The notes under the pieces are model-generated. The model was not told the DNA's origin, ran no database searches, and saw only the letters and a program-made list of their open reading frames with translations. The translations under genes and the position numbers were made by a program. A stretch of 64,000 bases of DNA from an uncultured Oscillospiraceae bacterium (GTDB lineage: Bacteria; Bacillota; Clostridia; Oscillospirales; Oscillospiraceae): the NCBI GenBank assembly GCA_944385465.1, contig CALWXH010000002.1, positions 13,569-77,568 on the forward strand, written 5' to 3'. The stretch's first letter is position 1; the number at the start of each line of letters is the position of its first letter. Shown piece by piece: positions 32,142 through 51,570 of the stretch.

Positions 32142-32545
32142 TGCTTGCACCTGCCTTTCCTTTATTACGGGCTCGCTGTCGGGGGAGGGGATCAACCCAC
32201 TTGTGTGCTCGCGCTTTGCCGGCTTGCGGCGGCTTGGCGCGTCTCGTTGTCACGCTCGGATTGGACACACGGCCGGGTCGCTTTCGCTGCGTCTCGCCCT
32301 GTAAACGGAATCGCGGGGCAATTCCTGGTTTCCAGGGCTCGCTTCACTCCAAGCTCCCCTGTGTGTCTATTCTCACGCTTCTTGCTGTCACGCTTCGCCT
32401 GTTCGCGACGCGGTTCTAAGCCCTGCGACTGCGCCAAAATCCCTCCGGCCCCCTGGGCCTGCTGGATTTTGGACTTCGCTCCGGTCTTAGCCCGCTGCTC
32501 ACGACGGCTCAGCGCTTCTCATGTCCCATTCAAAGCGGCTTTGAC

Positions 32546-32574
32546 ATTATATCAACGAGAGATGGGAATGTCAA
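32546..32574 (-). promoter_or_regulatory. consensus sigma-A promoter for the rplU operon
   Basis: Minus strand AAAAAAATCA-TTGACA-17 nt-TATAAT. This implies a ~400-nt leader. Confidence 0.7.
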
Positions 32575-39925: not shown

Positions 39926-41338
39926 TTGAACCGAACCACCCCTGTGATTCCCCAGGAAGAGATCGCCCGGCAGCGGGCGTACTGCGCCGAAATCCGCGCC
40001 CTCAACGCCCGGCTGGAGCGCGCCCCTGCCGCCTATGTGGACACCTACGGCTGCCAGCAGAACGAGGCGGACTCGGAGCTGCTGCGGGGCATGCTGGCCG
40101 AGATGGGCTATGAGATCGTGGATACGGACCGGGACGCCGATGTGATCGTCATCAACACCTGCGCCATCCGGGAGCACGCCGAGCAGCGGGTGCTGGGCAA
40201 TGTGGGCGCTCTGGTCCACGGCAAGCGGCGCAAGCCGGAGCAGATCATCTGCCTGTGCGGCTGCATGGCCCGGGAGCAGCACGTGGCGGACAAGCTGCGC
40301 CAGTCCTACCGCCATGTGGATCTGGTGTTTGGCCCCCAGGTGCTCTGGCGCTTTCCCGAGCTGCTGCGCCGGGTGATCACCCGCCGGGGCCGGGTGTTTG
40401 AGACGGGGGACGTGCCCGGGGCCATCGCCGAGGGCCTGCCGGTGCGCCGCTCGGGCAGGGTGAAGGCCTGGGTGTCCATCATGTACGGGTGCAACAACTT
40501 CTGCACCTACTGCATCGTCCCCTACGTCCGGGGGCGGGAGCGCAGCCGGGAGCCGGAGGCCATCCTGGCGGAGATCCGCCAGCTGGTGGAGGAGGGCTAT
40601 AAGGACATCACCCTGCTGGGCCAGAACGTGAACTCCTACGGCAAGGACCTGGGGGAGGGCGTGGACTTCCCCGACCTGCTGGAGCGGGCGGCGGCCATCC
40701 CCGGGGACTTTCTGCTGCGCTTCATGACCAGCCACCCCAAGGACGCCACCGAGAAGCTCTTTGACGTGATGGCCCGGTGCGAGAAGGTGGCCCCGGTGAT
40801 CCATCTGCCCTTCCAGTCGGGCAACAGCCGGGTGCTGTCGGCCATGAACCGCCGGTACACCCGGGAGCAGTACCTGGAGAAGGTGCGGGCCCTGCGGGCG
40901 CGCATCCCGGATGTGGTGCTCACCAGCGACGTGATCGTGGGCTTCCCCGGGGAGACCACGGAGGAGTTTGAGGACACCCTGTCCCTCATCCAGGAGGTGC
41001 GCTTTGACGCGCTGTTCACCTTCATCTACTCCCCCCGGAAGGGCACCCCGGCGGCGCAGCTGCCTGACCCCATGTCCAAGGAGGAGAAGTCGGCCAACTT
41101 CGACCGGCTGGTGGAGGAGCAGAACCGCATCTCCCTGGAGAAGCATCAGGCGTACATCGGCACGGTGCAGCGCTGCCTGGTGGACGGGCTCAGCGACGAC
41201 CCCCGGAACAATCTGAACGCCCGCACCCCCGGCGGGCGGCTGGTCCACCTCAGCGGCGACCCCGCCCTGGTGGGGCAGTTCGTGGACGTGGAGATCGTGG
41301 ACTGCTCCACCTGGGCGCTGTTTGGCGAGAAGCGCTGA
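39926..41338 (+). CDS. miaB: tRNA-2-methylthio-N6-dimethylallyladenosine synthase
   Basis: UPF0004 domain YVDTYGCQQNEADSE, radical SAM cluster CNNFCTYC and C-terminal TRAM domain. TTG start 7 nt after GGAGGGA. Confidence 0.9.
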   Translation: MNRTTPVIPQEEIARQRAYCAEIRALNARLERAPAAYVDTYGCQQNEADSELLRGMLAEMGYEIVDTDRDADVIVINTCAIREHAEQRVLGNVGALVHGKRRKPEQIICLCGCMAREQHVADKLRQSYRHVDLVFGPQVLWRFPELLRRVITRRGRVFETGDVPGAIAEGLPVRRSGRVKAWVSIMYGCNNFCTYCIVPYVRGRERSREPEAILAEIRQLVEEGYKDITLLGQNVNSYGKDLGEGVDFPDLLERAAAIPGDFLLRFMTSHPKDATEKLFDVMARCEKVAPVIHLPFQSGNSRVLSAMNRRYTREQYLEKVRALRARIPDVVLTSDVIVGFPGETTEEFEDTLSLIQEVRFDALFTFIYSPRKGTPAAQLPDPMSKEEKSANFDRLVEEQNRISLEKHQAYIGTVQRCLVDGLSDDPRNNLNARTPGGRLVHLSGDPALVGQFVDVEIVDCSTWALFGEKR

Positions 41339-42300
41339 GCCGTTGCGAGCAGCCCGGATGGACCGGAGCGAGGGCGAGCGGAGGGCCGCGCAGCGGCCCG
41401 CAGACCAGCCCGAGTCGAAGGGAAGCCGGGCGTCGCGAGCAGGCGAGGCGTGACACCAGAGAAGCGCTGAGCCAAGGATTCCGCCGCCTGCGGGCGGCGG
41501 GCGCTCCGCTGGGGGGCTTCCCTTTCGCCGGAGGGTTCCGGAAAATCTTTCAACTTGTCGGGTCCCGCCCCGACAGGCGGGGTACTTTCTCTTGCGCAAG
41601 AGAAAGTACCCAAAGAGTGCGCATAGGGGGCGAACCCCCTATGTACCCCCTGTTCAGTAGACCTGCCAACATCTCTTTCCGGCGTGCGTGACCCGCGGCT
41701 GCGCCGGTTCCATCGACGGCCTCCGGCCTGCTGCGTCCGTATGCTTTGGTGCCTGCGGCCCAGGTGACACGCCTCCACTGGCAGGGCCCTTCGGTGCCTG
41801 CGCCGTTAGAGGTGCAGGCTCGCAGGCTTGAACACCAAGAGCAGGCGCCCATAGGCGGGGAACGGGGTGACAAGTCACCTGCGCAAAAGGCCGGGGGCCG
41901 CCGTGCGTGGCAGGGAGTGTCAGCAGGAGGACGCCGGTCGTTAGAGTGACGCACCAATTCTGCTCTCCCGCTTTGGGGCCCCCGCCGAAACCCAGCGTCA
42001 GCGGTTTCGGTGGGGAGAGGACGAGCAAGGAAGCGAAGCGCAGTTTTCGCCGCCCTTGGGCGGAAACGAAGCTAAGCGGACTTTGCGAGGACGAGGGGGT
42101 TCTTAGGGAGAAAAATCCTGGAGGACGCCCTTTGTCCGATGGATTTGTCCCCCTAAGCGGGCTTTTGCCTACTTTTCTCCCGCGAGAAAAGTAGGTCGCC
42201 CTCAGGCGAAACCTGAGACGCGCCCGCCGGTGCGGGAACCGGCAAAAGTCCGGGGCTCCGGGGGCAGCGCCCCCAGGGCCAAAGAAAGCGCAGAGCCGCG
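41339..42300. repeat. mosaic intergenic repeat cluster L1 (modules C+, E+, core+, D+, B+, A+)
   Basis: About 960 bp without credible coding. It shares long blocks with 46157..47006 and 62018..62868 (see findings for module coordinates). Confidence 0.85.
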
Positions 42301-42334
42301 CGGCGGCCAGATTCATCCAGAAAGGACTCGTGCT

Positions 42335-42838
42335 ATGACCCAACGGGATCTTGTCCTGCGGGGGGCGGCCTACGGCGTGGCCCTGGCCCTGATCACAATT
42401 GTAAATTATTATGTGCTGGGGCTGCTGCCCATCCCCCTGCCCCTGATGCTCCCCGCCGCCGCGGTGGCGGTGGGGGCGCTGGAGGGGGAGAAGTTCGCCG
42501 CGGGTTTCGGCCTGGCGGCGGGGCTGCTCATGGCCACGGCGGGCCACGCCAGCCTGCTGGTGATCCCCGTGCTCACCGCGGCGGGGTGGATGACCAGCCT
42601 GCTCACCCAGCATGTGCTGCGCCGGGATCTGGTGGGCCACCTGCTGTGTATGCTGATTTTGCTGCTGGCCTGGGAGCTGTGCCAGACGGGCAGCCGCTGG
42701 CTGGCCGGCACGGCGGGGCCGGCGGCCCTGCTGCGGGTGGCGGGGCCGGAGCTGCTGTGTTCGCTGGTGTGCTCCCTGCCGGTCTACTGGGTGGGGCGGG
42801 TGTGCTGCCGCGGCTACGGGAGAATCTATCATGAATAA
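42335..42838 (+). CDS. mreD: MreD-like rod-shape membrane protein
   Basis: 167 aa with 4-5 TM segments. It sits directly upstream of, and overlaps, the PBP2 gene. No mreC lies upstream, so the assignment rests on position and size. Confidence 0.5.
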   Translation: MTQRDLVLRGAAYGVALALITIVNYYVLGLLPIPLPLMLPAAAVAVGALEGEKFAAGFGLAAGLLMATAGHASLLVIPVLTAAGWMTSLLTQHVLRRDLVGHLLCMLILLLAWELCQTGSRWLAGTAGPAALLRVAGPELLCSLVCSLPVYWVGRVCCRGYGRIYHE

Positions 42839-46156: not shown

Positions 46157-47006
46157 GTGTGATTCCTCCTTGTAATATGAGAAGTGAACATTACGAGTTG
46201 TGGTGAGATTTGGCCGTTGTTTGGGGCGGGGGCCAGGCCTCTGCTCAGGTTTCGGCCCCGTCCGAAAGGAACCAAAGGGCAGGGGATTCCGCCGCCTGCG
46301 GGCGGCGGGACGCTCCGCTGGGGTGACTTTTCTCACGCAAGAAAAGTCACCAAAAGTGCGCCCAAGGGGGAGCGCCCCCTTGGGTATCCCCCCGCTCAGT
46401 TGCACTGCGTCTTTCTCTTTCCGGCGTCCTGGACCCGCGGTTGCGCCGGTTCCCCCGACGGCCTCCGGCCTCCTGAATCCGGATGCTTCGGCTGCCGCAC
46501 CCCACCAGGGCGCCTGGCCGGGCGGGGCCCTTCGGCGTGTGCGCCGTTAGGGGAGCAGACCCGCAGGCTTGAACACCAAGACCAGGCGCCCGTAGGCGGC
46601 GCAGAAGATTGCAGGGCAAAACAGCAAAAGGCCAGGGGCCGCCGTGCGTCGCCGAGGGTGTCAGCAGATGTGCGCCGGTCGTTAGAGTGACGCACCGATT
46701 CTACTCCCCCGTAAAACGGGGGTTCTTAGGGGGCCAAATCCTGGAGGACGTCCTTTGTCCGATGGATTTGTCCCTCTAAGCGCGTCTTTGCCTACTTTCT
46801 GCGCGTGCAGAAAGTAGGTCGCCCCTCCGGGCGAAACCGGGGCCGGGCTGTTCGCGACGGCTCAGACGTTTCTGGGATCACGCTTCGCCTGCTCACGACG
46901 CCCGGCTTCCCGACCACTCGGACTGGTCTGCGGGCCGCTGTGCGGCCCTTCGCTCGTCCTCGCGACCGTCCATCCGGGCTGTTCGCGGCGGCTCAGACGC
47001 TTCTGA
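46157..47006. repeat. mosaic intergenic repeat cluster L2 (E+, core+, B+, A+, C-)
   Basis: An 850-bp non-coding gap inside the Moco gene cluster. It is collinear with L1 over the core, B and A modules, and module C is inverted. Confidence 0.85.
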
Positions 47007-47975
47007 TTACCCCCCAATCTGGCTCATCATATGCCCCTCGGCCCCGGGCACCTGGGCCTGAGCCTGGGCAAACTGGTGGGCGGCGGGCTTTTGGAGGATG
47101 GCCGCACCAATGGCCGCCTCCAGCTCCCCGTCGGAGCCGGAGAGCAGGGGGCGCAGCCATACCCCCCGGTCATATTGCAGGCAGGTCTTCAGAAAACCGG
47201 TGGCGGTGAGGCGCACCCGGTTGCACTGGTGGCAGAACTGGTGGCTCAGAGCGGAGATGAAGCCGATTTGCCCCTGGAAGCCGGGCAGCGTCCAATACCG
47301 GCTGGGCCCGCTGCCCAGGCGGCCGGAGTAGGGGGTCAGGGGGCCGTAGGCCGACTCCAGCAGGGCGCGCAGTTCTCCTTCGCTCCGGCCATGGAGTTCC
47401 TTCCCCAGGCCGATGGGCATCAGCTCGATGAACCGCACGGGGATGGGCTTGTCCCGGGCCAGCGCCGCCAGCTCCAGCAGCTCCTCCTCCGGGGCGATGG
47501 GGACGCAGTTGACCTTCACCGGCACCCCGGCGGCCAGACAGGTGTCCAGAGCGCCCAGGGTGCGCCCCACGCCCTCCCGGCGGGTGATGCGGCGGAAGGT
47601 GTCCTCGTTCAGGGTGTCCAGGCTGAGGTTTACCCCGGTGAGCCCCGCCTCCAGCAGGGCGGGCAGCTGCTGGCTGAGCAGGATGCCGTTGGTGGTGAGG
47701 GCCACCTCCCGGATGCCGGGAATGGCGCGCAGGCCGGCCACCAGCTCGGGCAGGCCCCGCCGCACCAGGGGCTCCCCCCCGGTGAGCCGGACCCGGCGGA
47801 CGCCCAGGCGGGCAAAGATGCGCGATAGGCGGAGGATGTCCTCAAAGCGGAGGATCTGGTCGTGGGGCAGCCACTCCACCCCCCCTTCGGGCATGCAGTA
47901 GCGGCAACGCAGGTTGCACCGGTCGGTGACGGAGATGCGCAGATAGTCGATGGAACGTCCGAATCCGTCCAGCAA
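47007..47975 (-). CDS. moaA: GTP 3',8-cyclase
   Basis: Radical SAM motif RISVTDRCNLRCRYCMP and C-terminal cluster CxxCxxxxC. TTG start 8 nt after GAGGAGG. Confidence 0.92.
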   Translation of the reverse strand: MLDGFGRSIDYLRISVTDRCNLRCRYCMPEGGVEWLPHDQILRFEDILRLSRIFARLGVRRVRLTGGEPLVRRGLPELVAGLRAIPGIREVALTTNGILLSQQLPALLEAGLTGVNLSLDTLNEDTFRRITRREGVGRTLGALDTCLAAGVPVKVNCVPIAPEEELLELAALARDKPIPVRFIELMPIGLGKELHGRSEGELRALLESAYGPLTPYSGRLGSGPSRYWTLPGFQGQIGFISALSHQFCHQCNRVRLTATGFLKTCLQYDRGVWLRPLLSGSDGELEAAIGAAILQKPAAHQFAQAQAQVPGAEGHMMSQIGG

Positions 47976-48946: not shown

Positions 48947-49152
48947 AACAGCACCGCCTTTACCATGGTTCCGGCCTCCAGGGCCGGGGAGCCCGCCGGG
49001 ATGTCCACCAGGCAGTTACAGCCGCCCCACCCGGCCCAGGCCGGGCGGGGACCCCCGAGGATGACAAAATCGCGGGGGCCAAATGAATTGCCTCCCGCTC
49101 CGCGCCAAAAGGCGCGCCGCCTGCCGGCGGTGGGTGGGCTGCACCTGCTCAT
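48943..49152 (-). pseudogene. duplicated moeA 3' fragment fused to a 125-bp insert (69-codon ORF)
   Basis: The last 25 codons ([25 protein letters not shown]) repeat the MoeA C-terminus. The 81-bp copies 48943-49023 and 49149-49229 match at 78/81 positions. Confidence 0.75.
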
Positions 49153-50354
49153 AGCAGCACCGCCTTTACCATCGTTCCGGCCTCCAGGGCCGGGGAGCCC
49201 GCCGGGATGTCCACCAGGCAGTTGCAGCCCACCTGGGAGCGCAGCTGGCCGGAGGAGTGGCCGTCGGGCAGGGAGATGGAGCCGTCCCGGAGGACGCCCC
49301 GGACAAACCGCCGTCCGCCGCTGGCCTTGGGGAAGGGGGTGGCCAGAGGGGCGGACAGGCGGACCGGCTGCCAGTGGGGCTGGCCCTCCAGGGCCGATAG
49401 CAGGGAGCGGCCCAGCAGCTCAAAGGTGGCCGCGGCGGCAAAGGGGTTGCCGGACAGGGACAGTACCGGCTTGCCCTGGATCAGGGAGAACATCAGCGGG
49501 GTGCCGGGTTTGAGCTGGACCCGCCAGAACAGCCGCTGGGCGTCCGCCAGGGGCAGGGCCTGGTGGAAAATGTCCTTATCCCCCACTGACACGCCGCCGG
49601 TGGTGATGACGCAGTCAAACAGTCCGGCGCTCTCGCTCAGTGCCTCGGCCACGGCGCGGGGGTCGTCCGGCCACCAGGCGGTGGCCGCCTCCAGTCCCAG
49701 CTGCCGGCACCGGGCGGCCAGCTGGGGCAGGTTGGAGTTGTAGATCTGGCCGGGGCGCAGGGTGTCCCCCGGCTGGGCCAGCTCGTCGCCGGTGCCGGCC
49801 AGCAGCACCTTGGGCCGGGGGTGGGCGGACAGGGGGGTCTCCCACAGCCCGGCGCTGGCCAGCACCCCCAGGGCGACGCTGTCCATCCGGGTGCCGGCGG
49901 GGAACAGCAGGCTGCCGTTTTGAAAGTCCTCCCCCGCGAAGCAGTAGTTCTCGTGGGGGGCCAGGGCGCGGAAGATGCCCACCCGGGGGTGGGCGCGGTC
50001 AGTGTCCTCCTGGCGGATCACGCAGTCGGCGCCGGGGGGGATGGGTGCCCCGGTCATGATCCGGGCGCACTGGCCGGGGTTCAGCGGAATCTGGGGCCAG
50101 TCCCCGGCGCAGAGGGTCTCCCGCACCTCCAGGAGAACGGGGTGGTCCGGGCTGGCGCCCAGGCTGTCCTCAGCCCGCAGGGCATAGCCGTCCAGGGGGG
50201 AGCGGTCAAAGGGGGGCTGGTCCATGGGGGCGATGACGTCCTGGGCCAGGACGTGGTCCTGCAGCCAGTTTCCCGCCAGCTCCACCGGAGGCAGGGGGGC
50301 GGTGTGCAGCCGGATGAGCTCCAGCGCCCGCTCCAGGGTGATGCCGGTCTCCAT
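49149..50354 (-). CDS. moeA: molybdopterin molybdenumtransferase
   Basis: METGITLERALELI...PFDRSPLDGYA...TTGGVSVGDKD. Start at ATG 50354 behind GGAAGGAGGGG. The longer ORF 49149..50678 overlaps the upstream gene. Confidence 0.9.
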   Translation of the reverse strand: METGITLERALELIRLHTAPLPPVELAGNWLQDHVLAQDVIAPMDQPPFDRSPLDGYALRAEDSLGASPDHPVLLEVRETLCAGDWPQIPLNPGQCARIMTGAPIPPGADCVIRQEDTDRAHPRVGIFRALAPHENYCFAGEDFQNGSLLFPAGTRMDSVALGVLASAGLWETPLSAHPRPKVLLAGTGDELAQPGDTLRPGQIYNSNLPQLAARCRQLGLEAATAWWPDDPRAVAEALSESAGLFDCVITTGGVSVGDKDIFHQALPLADAQRLFWRVQLKPGTPLMFSLIQGKPVLSLSGNPFAAAATFELLGRSLLSALEGQPHWQPVRLSAPLATPFPKASGGRRFVRGVLRDGSISLPDGHSSGQLRSQVGCNCLVDIPAGSPALEAGTMVKAVLL

Positions 50355-51404: not shown

Positions 51405-51565
51405 ACAAAAGCGGCCCTGTCCCCAAGGGACAAGGCCGCCAGAATCCATATGCTCCGACAAACGCCTGACCCTTTTCAACAAGGAAGGCGGCGCCGTTTC
51501 CCGCGCCACCCCGGCCCGGAGGCCATAGCGGATGCCTTAGGCCGGCGGGCTCGGATCAATTGGTG
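51405..51565 (-). promoter_or_regulatory. probable molybdenum-cofactor (Moco) riboswitch with terminator expression platform
   Basis: The minus strand contains GAUCCGAGCC...GGCCUCCGGGCC...GAAAAGG, blocks recalled from the Moco RNA motif. The terminator GGCCTTGTCCC-TTGG-GGACAGGGCC+GCTTTT follows (about 51413..51437), directly upstream of Moco genes. Confidence 0.6.
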
Positions 51566-51570
51566 TTACC

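What the first reader, a model, noticed from the sequence alone, without database searches (positions are those of the whole stretch)
41327..41473. ~132-bp repeat unit bounded by AGAAGCG(T)CTGAGCC that abuts stop codons and always runs with local transcription
Unit C is delimited by 15-bp direct repeats.
- L1: GAGAAGCGCTGAGCC at 41327-41341 and 41459-41473, period 132.
- L2, inverted: 46859-46873 and 46990-47004, period 131.
- rplU leader, inverted: about 32372-32382 and 32506-32520.

In L1 the first boundary contains the miaB stop codon and its last four codons (GEKR*). In L2 the boundary starts 3 nt after the moaA stop. In all three places the unit has the same orientation as the transcript (miaB 3' end, moaA 3' end, rplU 5' leader).

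The boundary repeats are more alike within a locus than between loci: both L2 boundaries carry an extra T. Each unit has a central hairpin, either GGGCCGC-GCA-GCGGCCC or, in the rplU leader, CCAAAATCC...GGATTTTGG at the same position. The orientation bias suggests function at the RNA level, or insertion coupled to transcription.
Basis: seen in the sequence. Interest (0 to 1): 0.65.

Follow-up and report, generated by a model that had tools for sequence, protein, structure and literature searches.

The report
Stop-codon-hugging hairpin repeat family
The flagged stretch is one copy of an apparently undescribed ~130-base hairpin-forming repeat that gut Oscillospiraceae carry in many copies, mostly right behind stop codons on the transcribed strand; its "boundary repeats" are the start of a second, cut-off copy, not an insertion scar.

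Summary
The window holds three full copies of a 131-139-nt unit: after miaB, after moaA and in the rplU leader.

A pattern scan found the same unit in about 114 of 120 loci, from many Oscillospiraceae (Intestinimonas, Pseudoflavonifractor, Flavonifractor, Lawsonibacter, Flintibacter and MAGs).

- **Fold.** The unit folds as one long rod hairpin. It has compensatory base changes, G-U pairs on the sense strand, conserved purine-rich internal loops and a swappable tip.
- **Position.** In co-directional gene contexts 74 copies are sense and 15 antisense. Half of the copies have a same-strand stop codon within about 15 nt of their 5' end.
- **Boundary repeat.** The 15-bp "boundary repeat" is the first 15-31 nt of a truncated next unit. 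Only about a third of copies have one.
- **moaA alleles.** Strains of this species differ by exactly one 131-nt period at moaA.
- **miaB junction.** Close relatives have miaB overlapping the next gene by 4 nt (ATGA) with no unit. L1 is therefore part of a ~1-kb insert that replaced MiaB's last two residues and stop codon, and I found no target duplication.

Best reading: a REP/ERIC/BOX-like interspersed repeat that is co-transcribed and constrained as a sense-strand fold, most likely RNA. How it spreads and what it does as RNA are unknown. Rfam and the paper library gave no match.

The parts
41326..41458 (+). Full unit L1 (rod hairpin). Its first bases supply MiaB's last three codons and stop.
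   Evidence: Model R1 scores it at 111 bits. Fold, alignment A2.
41459..41473 (+). Truncated second unit: 15 nt of the 5' arm.
   Evidence: In same-species strains L131/L132 its first base differs.
39926..41338 (+). miaB. The C-terminus GEKR* is element-derived; most relatives end GEL(V/L/A/I)*.
   Evidence: Pfam; C-termini of 120 homologues; empty sites.
41474..42331 (+). Rest of the ~1-kb insert relative to the empty miaB/next-gene junction. It holds the nested-hairpin island and a degenerate unit-like stretch (AGAAAGCGCAGAGCC..., about 42283-42331). It ends just before TGCTATGACCC.
   Evidence: repeat families D1, D2, D9, D12 and D15.
46874..47004 (-). Full unit L2, starting 2 nt after the moaA stop.
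   Evidence: R1 scores it at 103.8 bits. Fold z-score -2.97. It is absent from same-species contigs L138, L137 and L139.
46843..46873 (-). Truncated second unit: 31 nt of the 5' arm, 29/31 identical to 46974-47004.
   Evidence: The only copy in L138 is a hybrid of the two.
47007..47975 (-). moaA (GTP 3',8-cyclase).
   Evidence: Pfam Radical_SAM + Mob_synth_C.
32383..32521 (-). Full unit L3 (GGGCTAAGA subtype) at the start of the rplU-prp-rpmA leader.
   Evidence: R1 scores it at 110.2 bits. Fold z-score -4.39. Metatranscriptome contigs cover it.
32200..32372 (-). Related 'type B' unit following L3 in the leader (AGAAGCGTGAGAATAG...GAGCGTGAC).
   Evidence: R1 partial match at 32276-32358, 35 bits, E = 8e-9. 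The same type follows miaB in L125-127.
32546..32574 (-). Promoter-like site upstream of L3 (TTGACA-17-TATAAT, 12/12).
   Evidence: No RNA contig reaches beyond about 32557.

Best explanation
Unit C is a member of a large, modular family of ~130-nt rod-hairpin repeats found in gut Oscillospiraceae. Forms range from 27 to about 240 nt.

As DNA, the units come and go:
- they insert at gene junctions;
- they form short tandem arrays;
- they gain or lose whole periods;
- they collapse between short direct repeats inside the arms;
- they exchange their tip cassettes.

The 15-31-bp 'boundary repeat' is the beginning of a truncated next unit of such an array.

The units are co-transcribed with the gene upstream, as 3' UTR, intercistronic spacer or leader. 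They fold on the sense strand into a long hairpin with conserved purine-rich internal loops.

Inferred, not shown: this sense-strand fold (most likely as RNA) is what selection keeps. It most likely works as REP, ERIC and BOX hairpins do, as a barrier or processing or protein-binding site that sets the fate of the upstream mRNA right behind its stop codon. How new copies are made is unknown.
For: **Family**
- About 114 of 120 pattern-scan loci carry true units, from many genera.
- Model R1 picks out exactly the three window copies.

**Fold**
- 94.8% of cells are paired against 85.4% in shuffles (0 of 500 reach it).
- 200 compensatory cells against 55.5 in shuffles; slid controls give 27-44% pairing.
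- 11 of the 22 RNAalifold pairs show compensatory change.

**Strand**
- 175 G-U cells against 32 A-C cells at paired columns.
- The sense strand folds better than the antisense strand.

**Orientation**
- Flanking genes: sense/sense 74, antisense/antisense 15, convergent 14, divergent 3.
- Where the adjacent genes oppose the locus majority, the unit follows the adjacent genes 6 times to 1.

**Stop codons**
- 63 of 124 units have a same-strand stop codon ending between -16 and +12 nt of the GAGCC anchor.
- In 11 of these the gene uses a TGA inside the unit.

**Insertion at miaB**
- Relatives at 93% and 89% MiaB identity have miaB and the next gene overlapping by ATGA, with no unit.
- A different unit type sits at nearly the same junction (6 nt upstream) in another clade.
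- The element-derived tail needs at least 5 changes on the MiaB tree.

**Tandem nature of the boundary**
- Three alleles occur at moaA within one species. One differs from the window by exactly one period.
- 33 of 121 units are followed by a partial unit, 7 by a full unit and 81 by none.

**Constraint**
- At orthologous sites (rpsJ-rplC, argG-argH) the unit arms are 0.80-0.94 identical. Third codon positions next to them are 0.58-0.68 identical.

**Transcription**
- Metatranscriptome contigs cover the rplU leader including L3.
- At convergent gene ends the order is stop codon, unit, terminator (L022, L025, L033).
Against: - No RNA 3'-end or decay data could be had. Only assembled contigs of RNA runs were served.
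- G-T pairs also stabilise single-stranded DNA hairpins, so the strand asymmetry alone does not prove an RNA role.
- Conservation above synonymous sites could come from gene conversion among about 100 copies per genome.
- 15 co-directional copies are antisense. They include units inside stem III of two different T-box leaders, so hairpin formation alone may be enough for tolerance.
- The census is seeded on one conserved 22-mer and on 8-kb pieces of one genome per species.
- Genes were called with my own codon-usage score.
Confidence: 0.6

Rival explanations
1. Purely selfish or neutral DNA. The unit is a non-autonomous element moved in trans, MITE-like or by a single-strand hairpin-recognising enzyme. 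Its sense bias and stop-codon adjacency come only from insertion-site preference and from purging of harmful insertions. The transcript has no role.
For: - Presence or absence differs between close relatives and between strains.
- Decayed footprints exist (L133, L136, L086).
- Units are tolerated antisense inside T-box stem III.
- A few IMG/VR contigs carry units.
- Summed contig depth over the unit is about 15-20 times that of miaB beside it in four metagenomes. This sum includes copies from other organisms and is not a copy number.
Against: - No target duplication at the miaB junction.
- No IS-sized element bounded by the arms in about 1 Mb sampled.
- The interior loops, not only the ends, are the most conserved parts.
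- Orthologous copies persist in the S10 operon across species and change more slowly than third codon positions.
- G-U cells outnumber A-C cells about fivefold.
Confidence: 0.27
2. One reading: the boundary is a 15-bp target-site duplication made when the unit inserted into AGAAGCG(T)CTGAGCC-like targets, perhaps coupled to transcription.
For: - The two boundaries of a locus share locus-specific variants: the T in L2, CC in L140, GTCGAGAGC in L002.
- A strain without the L2 unit has exactly one copy of the boundary (L138).
Against: - The 'target' is itself the conserved 5' arm of the family.
- The repeat length varies from 0 to 36 nt, and 81 of 121 units have none.
- The naive miaB site has no such sequence and is not duplicated.
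- Full tandem arrays exist with a period of 131-136 nt.
Confidence: 0.05
3. A translation-coupled RNA switch. The terminating ribosome melts the hairpin foot, which holds the stop codon. This frees the 3' arm to pair with the downstream partial 5' arm and changes the fate of the downstream cistron.
For: - Stop-codon bases co-vary with the 3' tail (TAAGCG with GTGATA, GAAGCG with GTGACA, ATAGCG with GTGAATA, ACAGCG with GTGAGTA).
- In L2 the alternative hairpin is stable (-28.8 kcal/mol, z-score -3.0).
Against: - The alternative hairpin is not significant in L1 or in the sister species (z-scores 0.15 and 0.24).
- Two thirds of units have no partial copy.
- The full-length fold of L2 keeps the long hairpin.
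Confidence: 0.05
4. A double-stranded DNA site for a chromosomal protein, as BIMEs are for gyrase and IHF. The hairpin potential would be incidental.
For: Conserved non-palindromic purine-rich blocks (GGAGCGAGG, GAGTCGGAGGGAAG).
Against: - Compensatory changes keep the pairing.
- The strong sense-strand asymmetry and the orientation relative to genes are not expected for a duplex-binding site.
Confidence: 0.03

Closest known systems
ERIC / IRU elements of Enterobacteriaceae and Vibrio
   Same: An imperfect palindrome of about 127 nt in transcribed intergenic DNA. Shorter and longer variants arise by internal deletion or insertion. ERIC is co-transcribed and affects upstream mRNA stability (PMC3184786, read).
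   Different: - No sequence similarity to E. coli genomes.
- A different phylum.
- No TA target duplication.
- Strong sense bias and stop-codon adjacency.
- A swappable tip cassette and tandem arrays.
BOX elements of Streptococcus pneumoniae
   Same: Modular: conserved end modules that pair, and a variable middle. Intergenic, transcribed, and with an RNA-level role proposed (PMC3184786).
   Different: Unrelated sequence. BOX varies by the number of boxB modules. Here the variation is by nested hairpin cassettes and by whole-unit tandem copies.
REP / BIME (and REPIN-RAYT) of Proteobacteria
   Same: Abundant extragenic hairpins in 3' UTRs and between cistrons. They protect upstream mRNA. From my own knowledge (Liang, Rudd and Deutscher 2015, not read here), REPs within about 15 nt of a stop codon lower translation.
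   Different: REPs are 20-40 nt with a GTAG head, alternate in orientation within BIMEs and are tied to RAYT genes. Here the units are about 130 nt and one orientation dominates. No RAYT link could be tested.
Mycobacterial interspersed repetitive units (MIRU)
   Same: Tandem units between cistrons of operons, in the orientation of the genes, touching stop codons, with copy-number differences between strains. These MIRU properties are from my own knowledge (Supply et al. 1997), not read here.
   Different: MIRUs are 46-101 bp, are not long hairpins, and carry small ORFs that couple translation. In 11 cases here the upstream gene ends on a TGA inside the unit; whether units carry coupling ORFs was not examined systematically.
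Integron attC sites
   Same: Imperfect hairpins of 57-141 nt with a variable centre, right after the stop codon and in the orientation of the gene, with strand-specific features.
   Different: No RYYYAAC/GTTRRRY core sites. The copies sit in core operons (S10, miaB, moaA, argGH), not in cassette arrays.

Membership tests
ERIC-type MITE | An imperfect palindrome of about 127 bp in transcribed intergenic regions. | tested here: met
   Units are 131-139 nt. The rod fold is supported by covariation. The units lie in leaders and 3' UTRs.
ERIC-type MITE | Terminal inverted repeats flanked by a TA target duplication. | tested here: not met
   The empty miaB junction compared with filled ones (window, L133, L136) shows no duplication and a few bases lost.
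ERIC-type MITE | Sequence related to the enterobacterial consensus. | tested here: not met
   blastn with word size 11 against 5,426 E. coli genomes gave no match.
REP / BIME | A 20-40-nt palindrome with a conserved GTAG head, in alternating orientation within clusters. | tested here: not met
   Units are about 130 nt and start with (A)AGCG. Arrays are head-to-tail.
REP / BIME | A RAYT (Y1 transposase) gene flanked by the repeats in the same genome. | not testable with these tools
No IS-sized element bounded by the arms was seen in about 1 Mb.
BOX | boxA-boxB(n)-boxC modules with pneumococcal sequence. | not tested
   No pneumococcal BOX sequence or model was compared here. The only resemblance seen is the modular plan (conserved pairing ends, variable middle).
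MIRU | Tandem intercistronic units in gene orientation with copy-number variation between strains. | tested here: met
   Arrays with a period of 131-136 nt; a one-period difference between alleles at moaA; sense bias.
MIRU | Small ORFs in the unit that overlap the flanking stop and start codons (translational coupling). | tested here: inconclusive
   Upstream ORFs end at or a few bases into the unit. I did not look systematically for unit-internal ORFs.
Integron attC | R''/R' core sites (RYYYAAC ... GTTRRRY) and a cassette-array context. | tested here: not met
   The ends are AGAAGCG... and ...GCGTGAYA. The neighbours are core operons.
Any Rfam 15 family | A match to a curated covariance model. 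| tested here: not met
   No match at E up to 10 on 41280-41520. The only gathering-score hit in the window is the Moco riboswitch.

The most novel reading that the evidence does not exclude
The units are a dedicated RNA module rather than tolerated junk. A trans-acting factor reads the conserved purine-rich loops of a hairpin whose foot holds the stop codon. This links translation termination to mRNA processing or decay in about a hundred operons per genome. Alternatively, new copies are placed at stop codons by a mechanism coupled to transcription or translation, possibly through unit-length circular intermediates, which would explain the terminal redundancy of 0-36 nt.
Probability: 0.15. 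Interest if true: 0.85.

Novelty: new variant of a known kind. Interest (0 to 1): 0.6.

Why it matters
Oscillospiraceae are major gut anaerobes with almost no known post-transcriptional biology.

A repeat that sits behind the stop codons of core operons (S10, miaB, moaA, argGH, the L21 leader), keeps an RNA-like fold across genera and differs between strains would matter in four ways:
- as a handle on mRNA fate in these bacteria;
- as a source of strain markers, since it behaves like a VNTR;
- as a cause of contig breaks and mis-called C-termini in MAGs (MiaB's GEKR, GRKREG and GEKC tails);
- as a Firmicute test case for the old question of whether REP/ERIC/BOX-type repeats are selfish DNA or domesticated RNA elements.

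Tried and rejected
- **Target-site duplication.** Rejected from the empty and filled miaB sites and from the variable length of the 3' repeat.
- **Orientation set by replication.** Unlikely. The three window copies alternate -, +, - within 15 kb, and units follow the adjacent genes 6 times to 1 where these oppose the locus majority.
- **Alternative hairpin between the 3' arm and the partial unit.** It forms only in L2.
- **Parent IS with the same ends.** None in about 1 Mb.
- **Plasmids, GenBank phages, E. coli genomes.** No similarity.
- **RNA 3' ends.** Only Logan contigs of metatranscriptomes were available. miaB itself had no RNA coverage, and unit-containing RNA contigs cannot be assigned to a locus.
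- **Papers.** Four conserved k-mers and several keyword sets found no description of the family.
- **K-turns.** The internal loops do not fit the 3-nt-bulge plus tandem G-A rule by inspection. They are symmetric or 5-by-4 purine loops.
Full report
**What is in the window**

- GAGAAGCGCTGAGCC stands at 41327-41341 and 41459-41473.
- An inverted copy of the unit lies after moaA, and a third lies in the rplU leader.
- L1 and L2 are 87% complementary over 126 nt.
- A 24-mer of the 3' arm occurs three times against none expected.
- Pfam confirms miaB (39926-41338, +), moaA (47007-47975, -) and the L21-Prp-L27 operon on the minus strand.
- miaB reads E-K-R-stop out of the first boundary. moaA stops 2 nt before its unit.
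- L3 begins about 17-19 nt after the start site implied by a 12/12 promoter at 32574-32546.

One correction: the L2 repeat is 31 nt long (46974-47004 and 46843-46873, 29/31), not 15.

**The unit is one long hairpin**

Each copy folds from its first bases to its last into a rod. The sense strand folds better than the antisense strand (z-scores -1.65, -2.97 and -4.39 against -0.08, 0.20 and -3.88).

**A family across Oscillospiraceae**

About 114 of these are true units. They come from Intestinimonas, Pseudoflavonifractor, Flavonifractor, Lawsonibacter, Flintibacter and many MAGs of human, chicken, mouse, rabbit and ruminant guts.

An alignment of 96 full units (A2) shows:
- a conserved 5' arm, (T/G)AAGCG(Y)CYGAGCCGTCGTGAGCAGCGCGGATGGACCGGAGCGAGG;
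- a conserved 3' arm, CCGAGTCGGAGGGAAGCCGCGCGTCGCGAACAGGCGARGCGTGAYA;
- a tip that comes in a handful of recurring cassette types.

On a 27-pair structure:

| Measure | Observed | Shuffled |
|---|---|---|
| Cells paired | 94.8% | 85.4% (0 of 500 shuffles reach it) |
| Compensatory cells | 200 | 55.5 |
| Pairing with partners slid | n/a | 27-44% |

Eleven of the 22 pairs predicted by RNAalifold show compensatory change.

At paired columns there are 175 G-U cells against 32 A-C cells. This means the fold is kept on the strand that matches the flanking genes.

The internal loops are purine-rich and among the most conserved columns: tandem GA/GA, AUGGA/GAAG and GGA/GGA.

Rfam has no match even at E = 10. 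Neither the paper library, nor plasmids, GenBank phages or E. coli genomes have one.

**Where units sit**

I called genes in the 8-kb loci with a self-trained codon-usage score. The flanks of the units are then:

| Flanking genes (upstream/downstream of the unit) | Units |
|---|---|
| Sense / sense | 74 |
| Antisense / antisense | 15 |
| Convergent | 14 |
| Divergent | 3 |

- Where the adjacent genes oppose the strand majority of the rest of the locus (a rough proxy for replication direction), the unit follows the adjacent genes 6 times to 1.
- In the window the three copies alternate -, +, - with their genes.
- Of 124 units with a recognisable 5' arm, 63 have a same-strand stop codon ending between -16 and +12 nt of the GAGCC anchor. 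Nineteen are in the exact register TAAGCG/TGAGCG. In eleven the gene runs into the unit and stops on its CTGAGCC or GTCGTGAGC TGA, as miaB does.
- Distances to the next start codon are broad by contrast.
- At convergent gene ends the order is stop codon, unit, terminator.
- The antisense copies are mostly in 5' leaders. They include units or their remnants inside stem III of two different T-box leaders, one of them orthologous in four species.

So 'always with transcription' is a strong bias, not a rule.

**What the boundary repeat is**

Among 121 units, 7 are followed by a full unit, 33 by a partial 5' arm of 9-36 nt and 81 by nothing of the kind. Tandem arrays have periods of 131-136 nt.

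Contigs of the same species (MoaA 98-100% identical) show three alleles behind moaA:

| Allele | Contigs | Behind the moaA stop |
|---|---|---|
| A | window, L121 | unit plus 31-nt partial unit |
| B | L138 | a single 31-nt piece, a hybrid of the window's two copies, then the repeat island |
| C | L137, L139, run X3 | only AGAAGCGT, then a rearranged island |

Alleles A and B differ by exactly one 131-nt period. That is what slippage or unequal recombination does to a tandem repeat. The 'empty' allele still holds family sequence.

A sister species (MoaA 83% identical; L140-143) has a unit plus a 27-nt partial unit at the same place and no island.

It fits local duplication or conversion.

**L1 is an insertion**

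Of the 120 closest MiaB homologues listed, 69 end in a short tail, mostly GEL(V/L/A/I)*.

In relatives at 93% and 89% identity, miaB overlaps the next gene by 4 nt (...GGAGAACTGCTATGACC...). That next gene encodes 167 residues and precedes a PBP gene.

The window and same-species strains L131/L132 carry about 1 kb between GGCGAG| and |TGCTATGACCC. This insert holds the unit, the 15-nt partial unit, the nested-hairpin island and a degenerate unit. Nothing is duplicated, and a base or a few are lost.

Other lineages:
- Another clade has a different ('type B') unit 6 nt further upstream at this junction, which gives the tail GRKREG*.
- One lineage keeps GEKR* with only a 34-nt spacer. The spacer is a collapsed footprint, 12 nt of the 5' end joined to about 14 nt of the 3' end (L133-135).
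- One lineage has a decayed GEKC* remnant (L136).

On a MiaB tree built without the tails, the element-derived EK tail needs at least five changes. This means repeated insertion at one spot or spread of filled alleles by recombination. I cannot tell which. The empty site shares GAGAA with the unit's 5' end.

In the rplU leader, a metatranscriptome contig of a relative joins 32188 to 32521 with 17 other bases between. That is a leader without the 332-nt repeat block.

**Decay, collapse and cassette exchange**

- Short forms (27 nt: AAGCGTCYGAGCC-GTCGYGARCAG-GCGARGCGTGA) keep one copy of the 11-nt block. That block occurs in both arms because its core TCGCGA is palindromic. Either arm's version or a hybrid is kept, as deletion between direct repeats predicts.
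- Orthologous sites carry full, short or enlarged forms. Examples are rpsJ-rplC in L004, L068, L085, L087 and L108, and the T-box site in L031, L070, L075 and L086.
- Orthologous or tandem neighbours with the same arms can carry different tip cassettes (L017/L026, L021/L080, the two units of L019).

**Constraint**

At the rpsJ-rplC and argG-argH sites the arms are 0.80-0.94 identical between species. Third codon positions of the adjacent genes are 0.58-0.68 identical. Purifying selection would explain this. So would conversion towards a family consensus that some trans-acting factor holds constant.

**RNA data**

Only assembled contigs of metatranscriptomes were served.
- They cover the rplU leader including L3 and stop near 32549-32557, next to the predicted start site.
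- miaB had no RNA coverage. Unit-bearing RNA contigs cannot be assigned to a locus.
- In DNA runs the summed depth over the unit is about 15-20 times that of miaB. This fits many near-identical copies in these communities.

**Verdict**

Shown:
- a real, widespread and, as far as the libraries searched show, unpublished family;
- a rod fold with covariation on the sense strand;
- a strong sense bias and adjacency to stop codons;
- insertion and plus-or-minus-one-period polymorphism;
- no target duplication.

Inferred:
- the fold is selected as RNA;
- the unit acts like REP, ERIC and BOX hairpins on the fate of the upstream mRNA.

Unknown:
- how copies are made;
- why they end up against stop codons.

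Two earlier follow-ups of this scan (e1-5199365, e1-5199366) described the same family in another genome and reached the same kind of reading. They are AI notes, not independent proof. Their main claims (family, fold, strand, stop-codon adjacency) were re-derived here from other loci.

Noticed in passing
L086:5963-6212 (+); also L031, L070, L075; a second leader in L105: T-box leaders (Rfam RF00230, 104.7 bits in L086) carry a unit or its remnant in antisense orientation inside the stem III region. The size ranges from about 30 to 133 nt at the orthologous site.
   Followed up: partly
window 46700-47006 against L137, L138, L139 and run X3: Three allelic arrangements of the repeat cluster behind moaA within one species. 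They include a rearranged or flipped nested-hairpin island.
   Followed up: partly
L004, L085, L108, L068, downstream of the rpsJ unit: A conserved non-coding stretch (…GTACC(C)GCAGTCCGCCGC…GGCCGAGCAATGRCAGYCCAATGG) lies between the unit and rplC. It may be an S10-operon regulatory structure. It was not examined.
   Followed up: no
run X26 (metatranscriptome), laid on window 41328-41455: A 166-nt contig at depth 95.9 reads 3' arm, 5' arm, 84 other bases, 3' arm. This is a cyclic or tandem unit contig. Its depth is about 13 times that of this organism's r-protein contigs in the same run, which is similar to the DNA ratio.
   Followed up: no
window 49105-49171 (-) and 42539-42595 (-): Weak matches to the unit model (E = 0.18 and 0.0023). 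The first lies in the 125-bp insert between the duplicated moeA/moaC junctions. The second lies inside the coding region downstream of the island and is probably chance.
   Followed up: no
L144, L145/L147, L148, L149 (IMG/VR contigs): A few predicted viral contigs carry true units, and L149 carries a tandem pair. They may be prophages or mis-called host DNA.
   Followed up: no
L049 (contig filed under Alloprevotella sp.): A canonical unit sits at the end of a contig binned as a Bacteroidota genome. This is most likely a binning error.
   Followed up: no
window 51456-51568 (-): A Moco riboswitch (RF01055, 64 bits), the only Rfam gathering-score hit in the window.
   Followed up: no
MiaB homologues P0032, P0064, P0111 and others: Other variant MiaB tails (ELSAEHPGAGG, ELSTEPS, ETYLNE) suggest further insertions or read-through at the same gene end in other lineages.
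   Followed up: no
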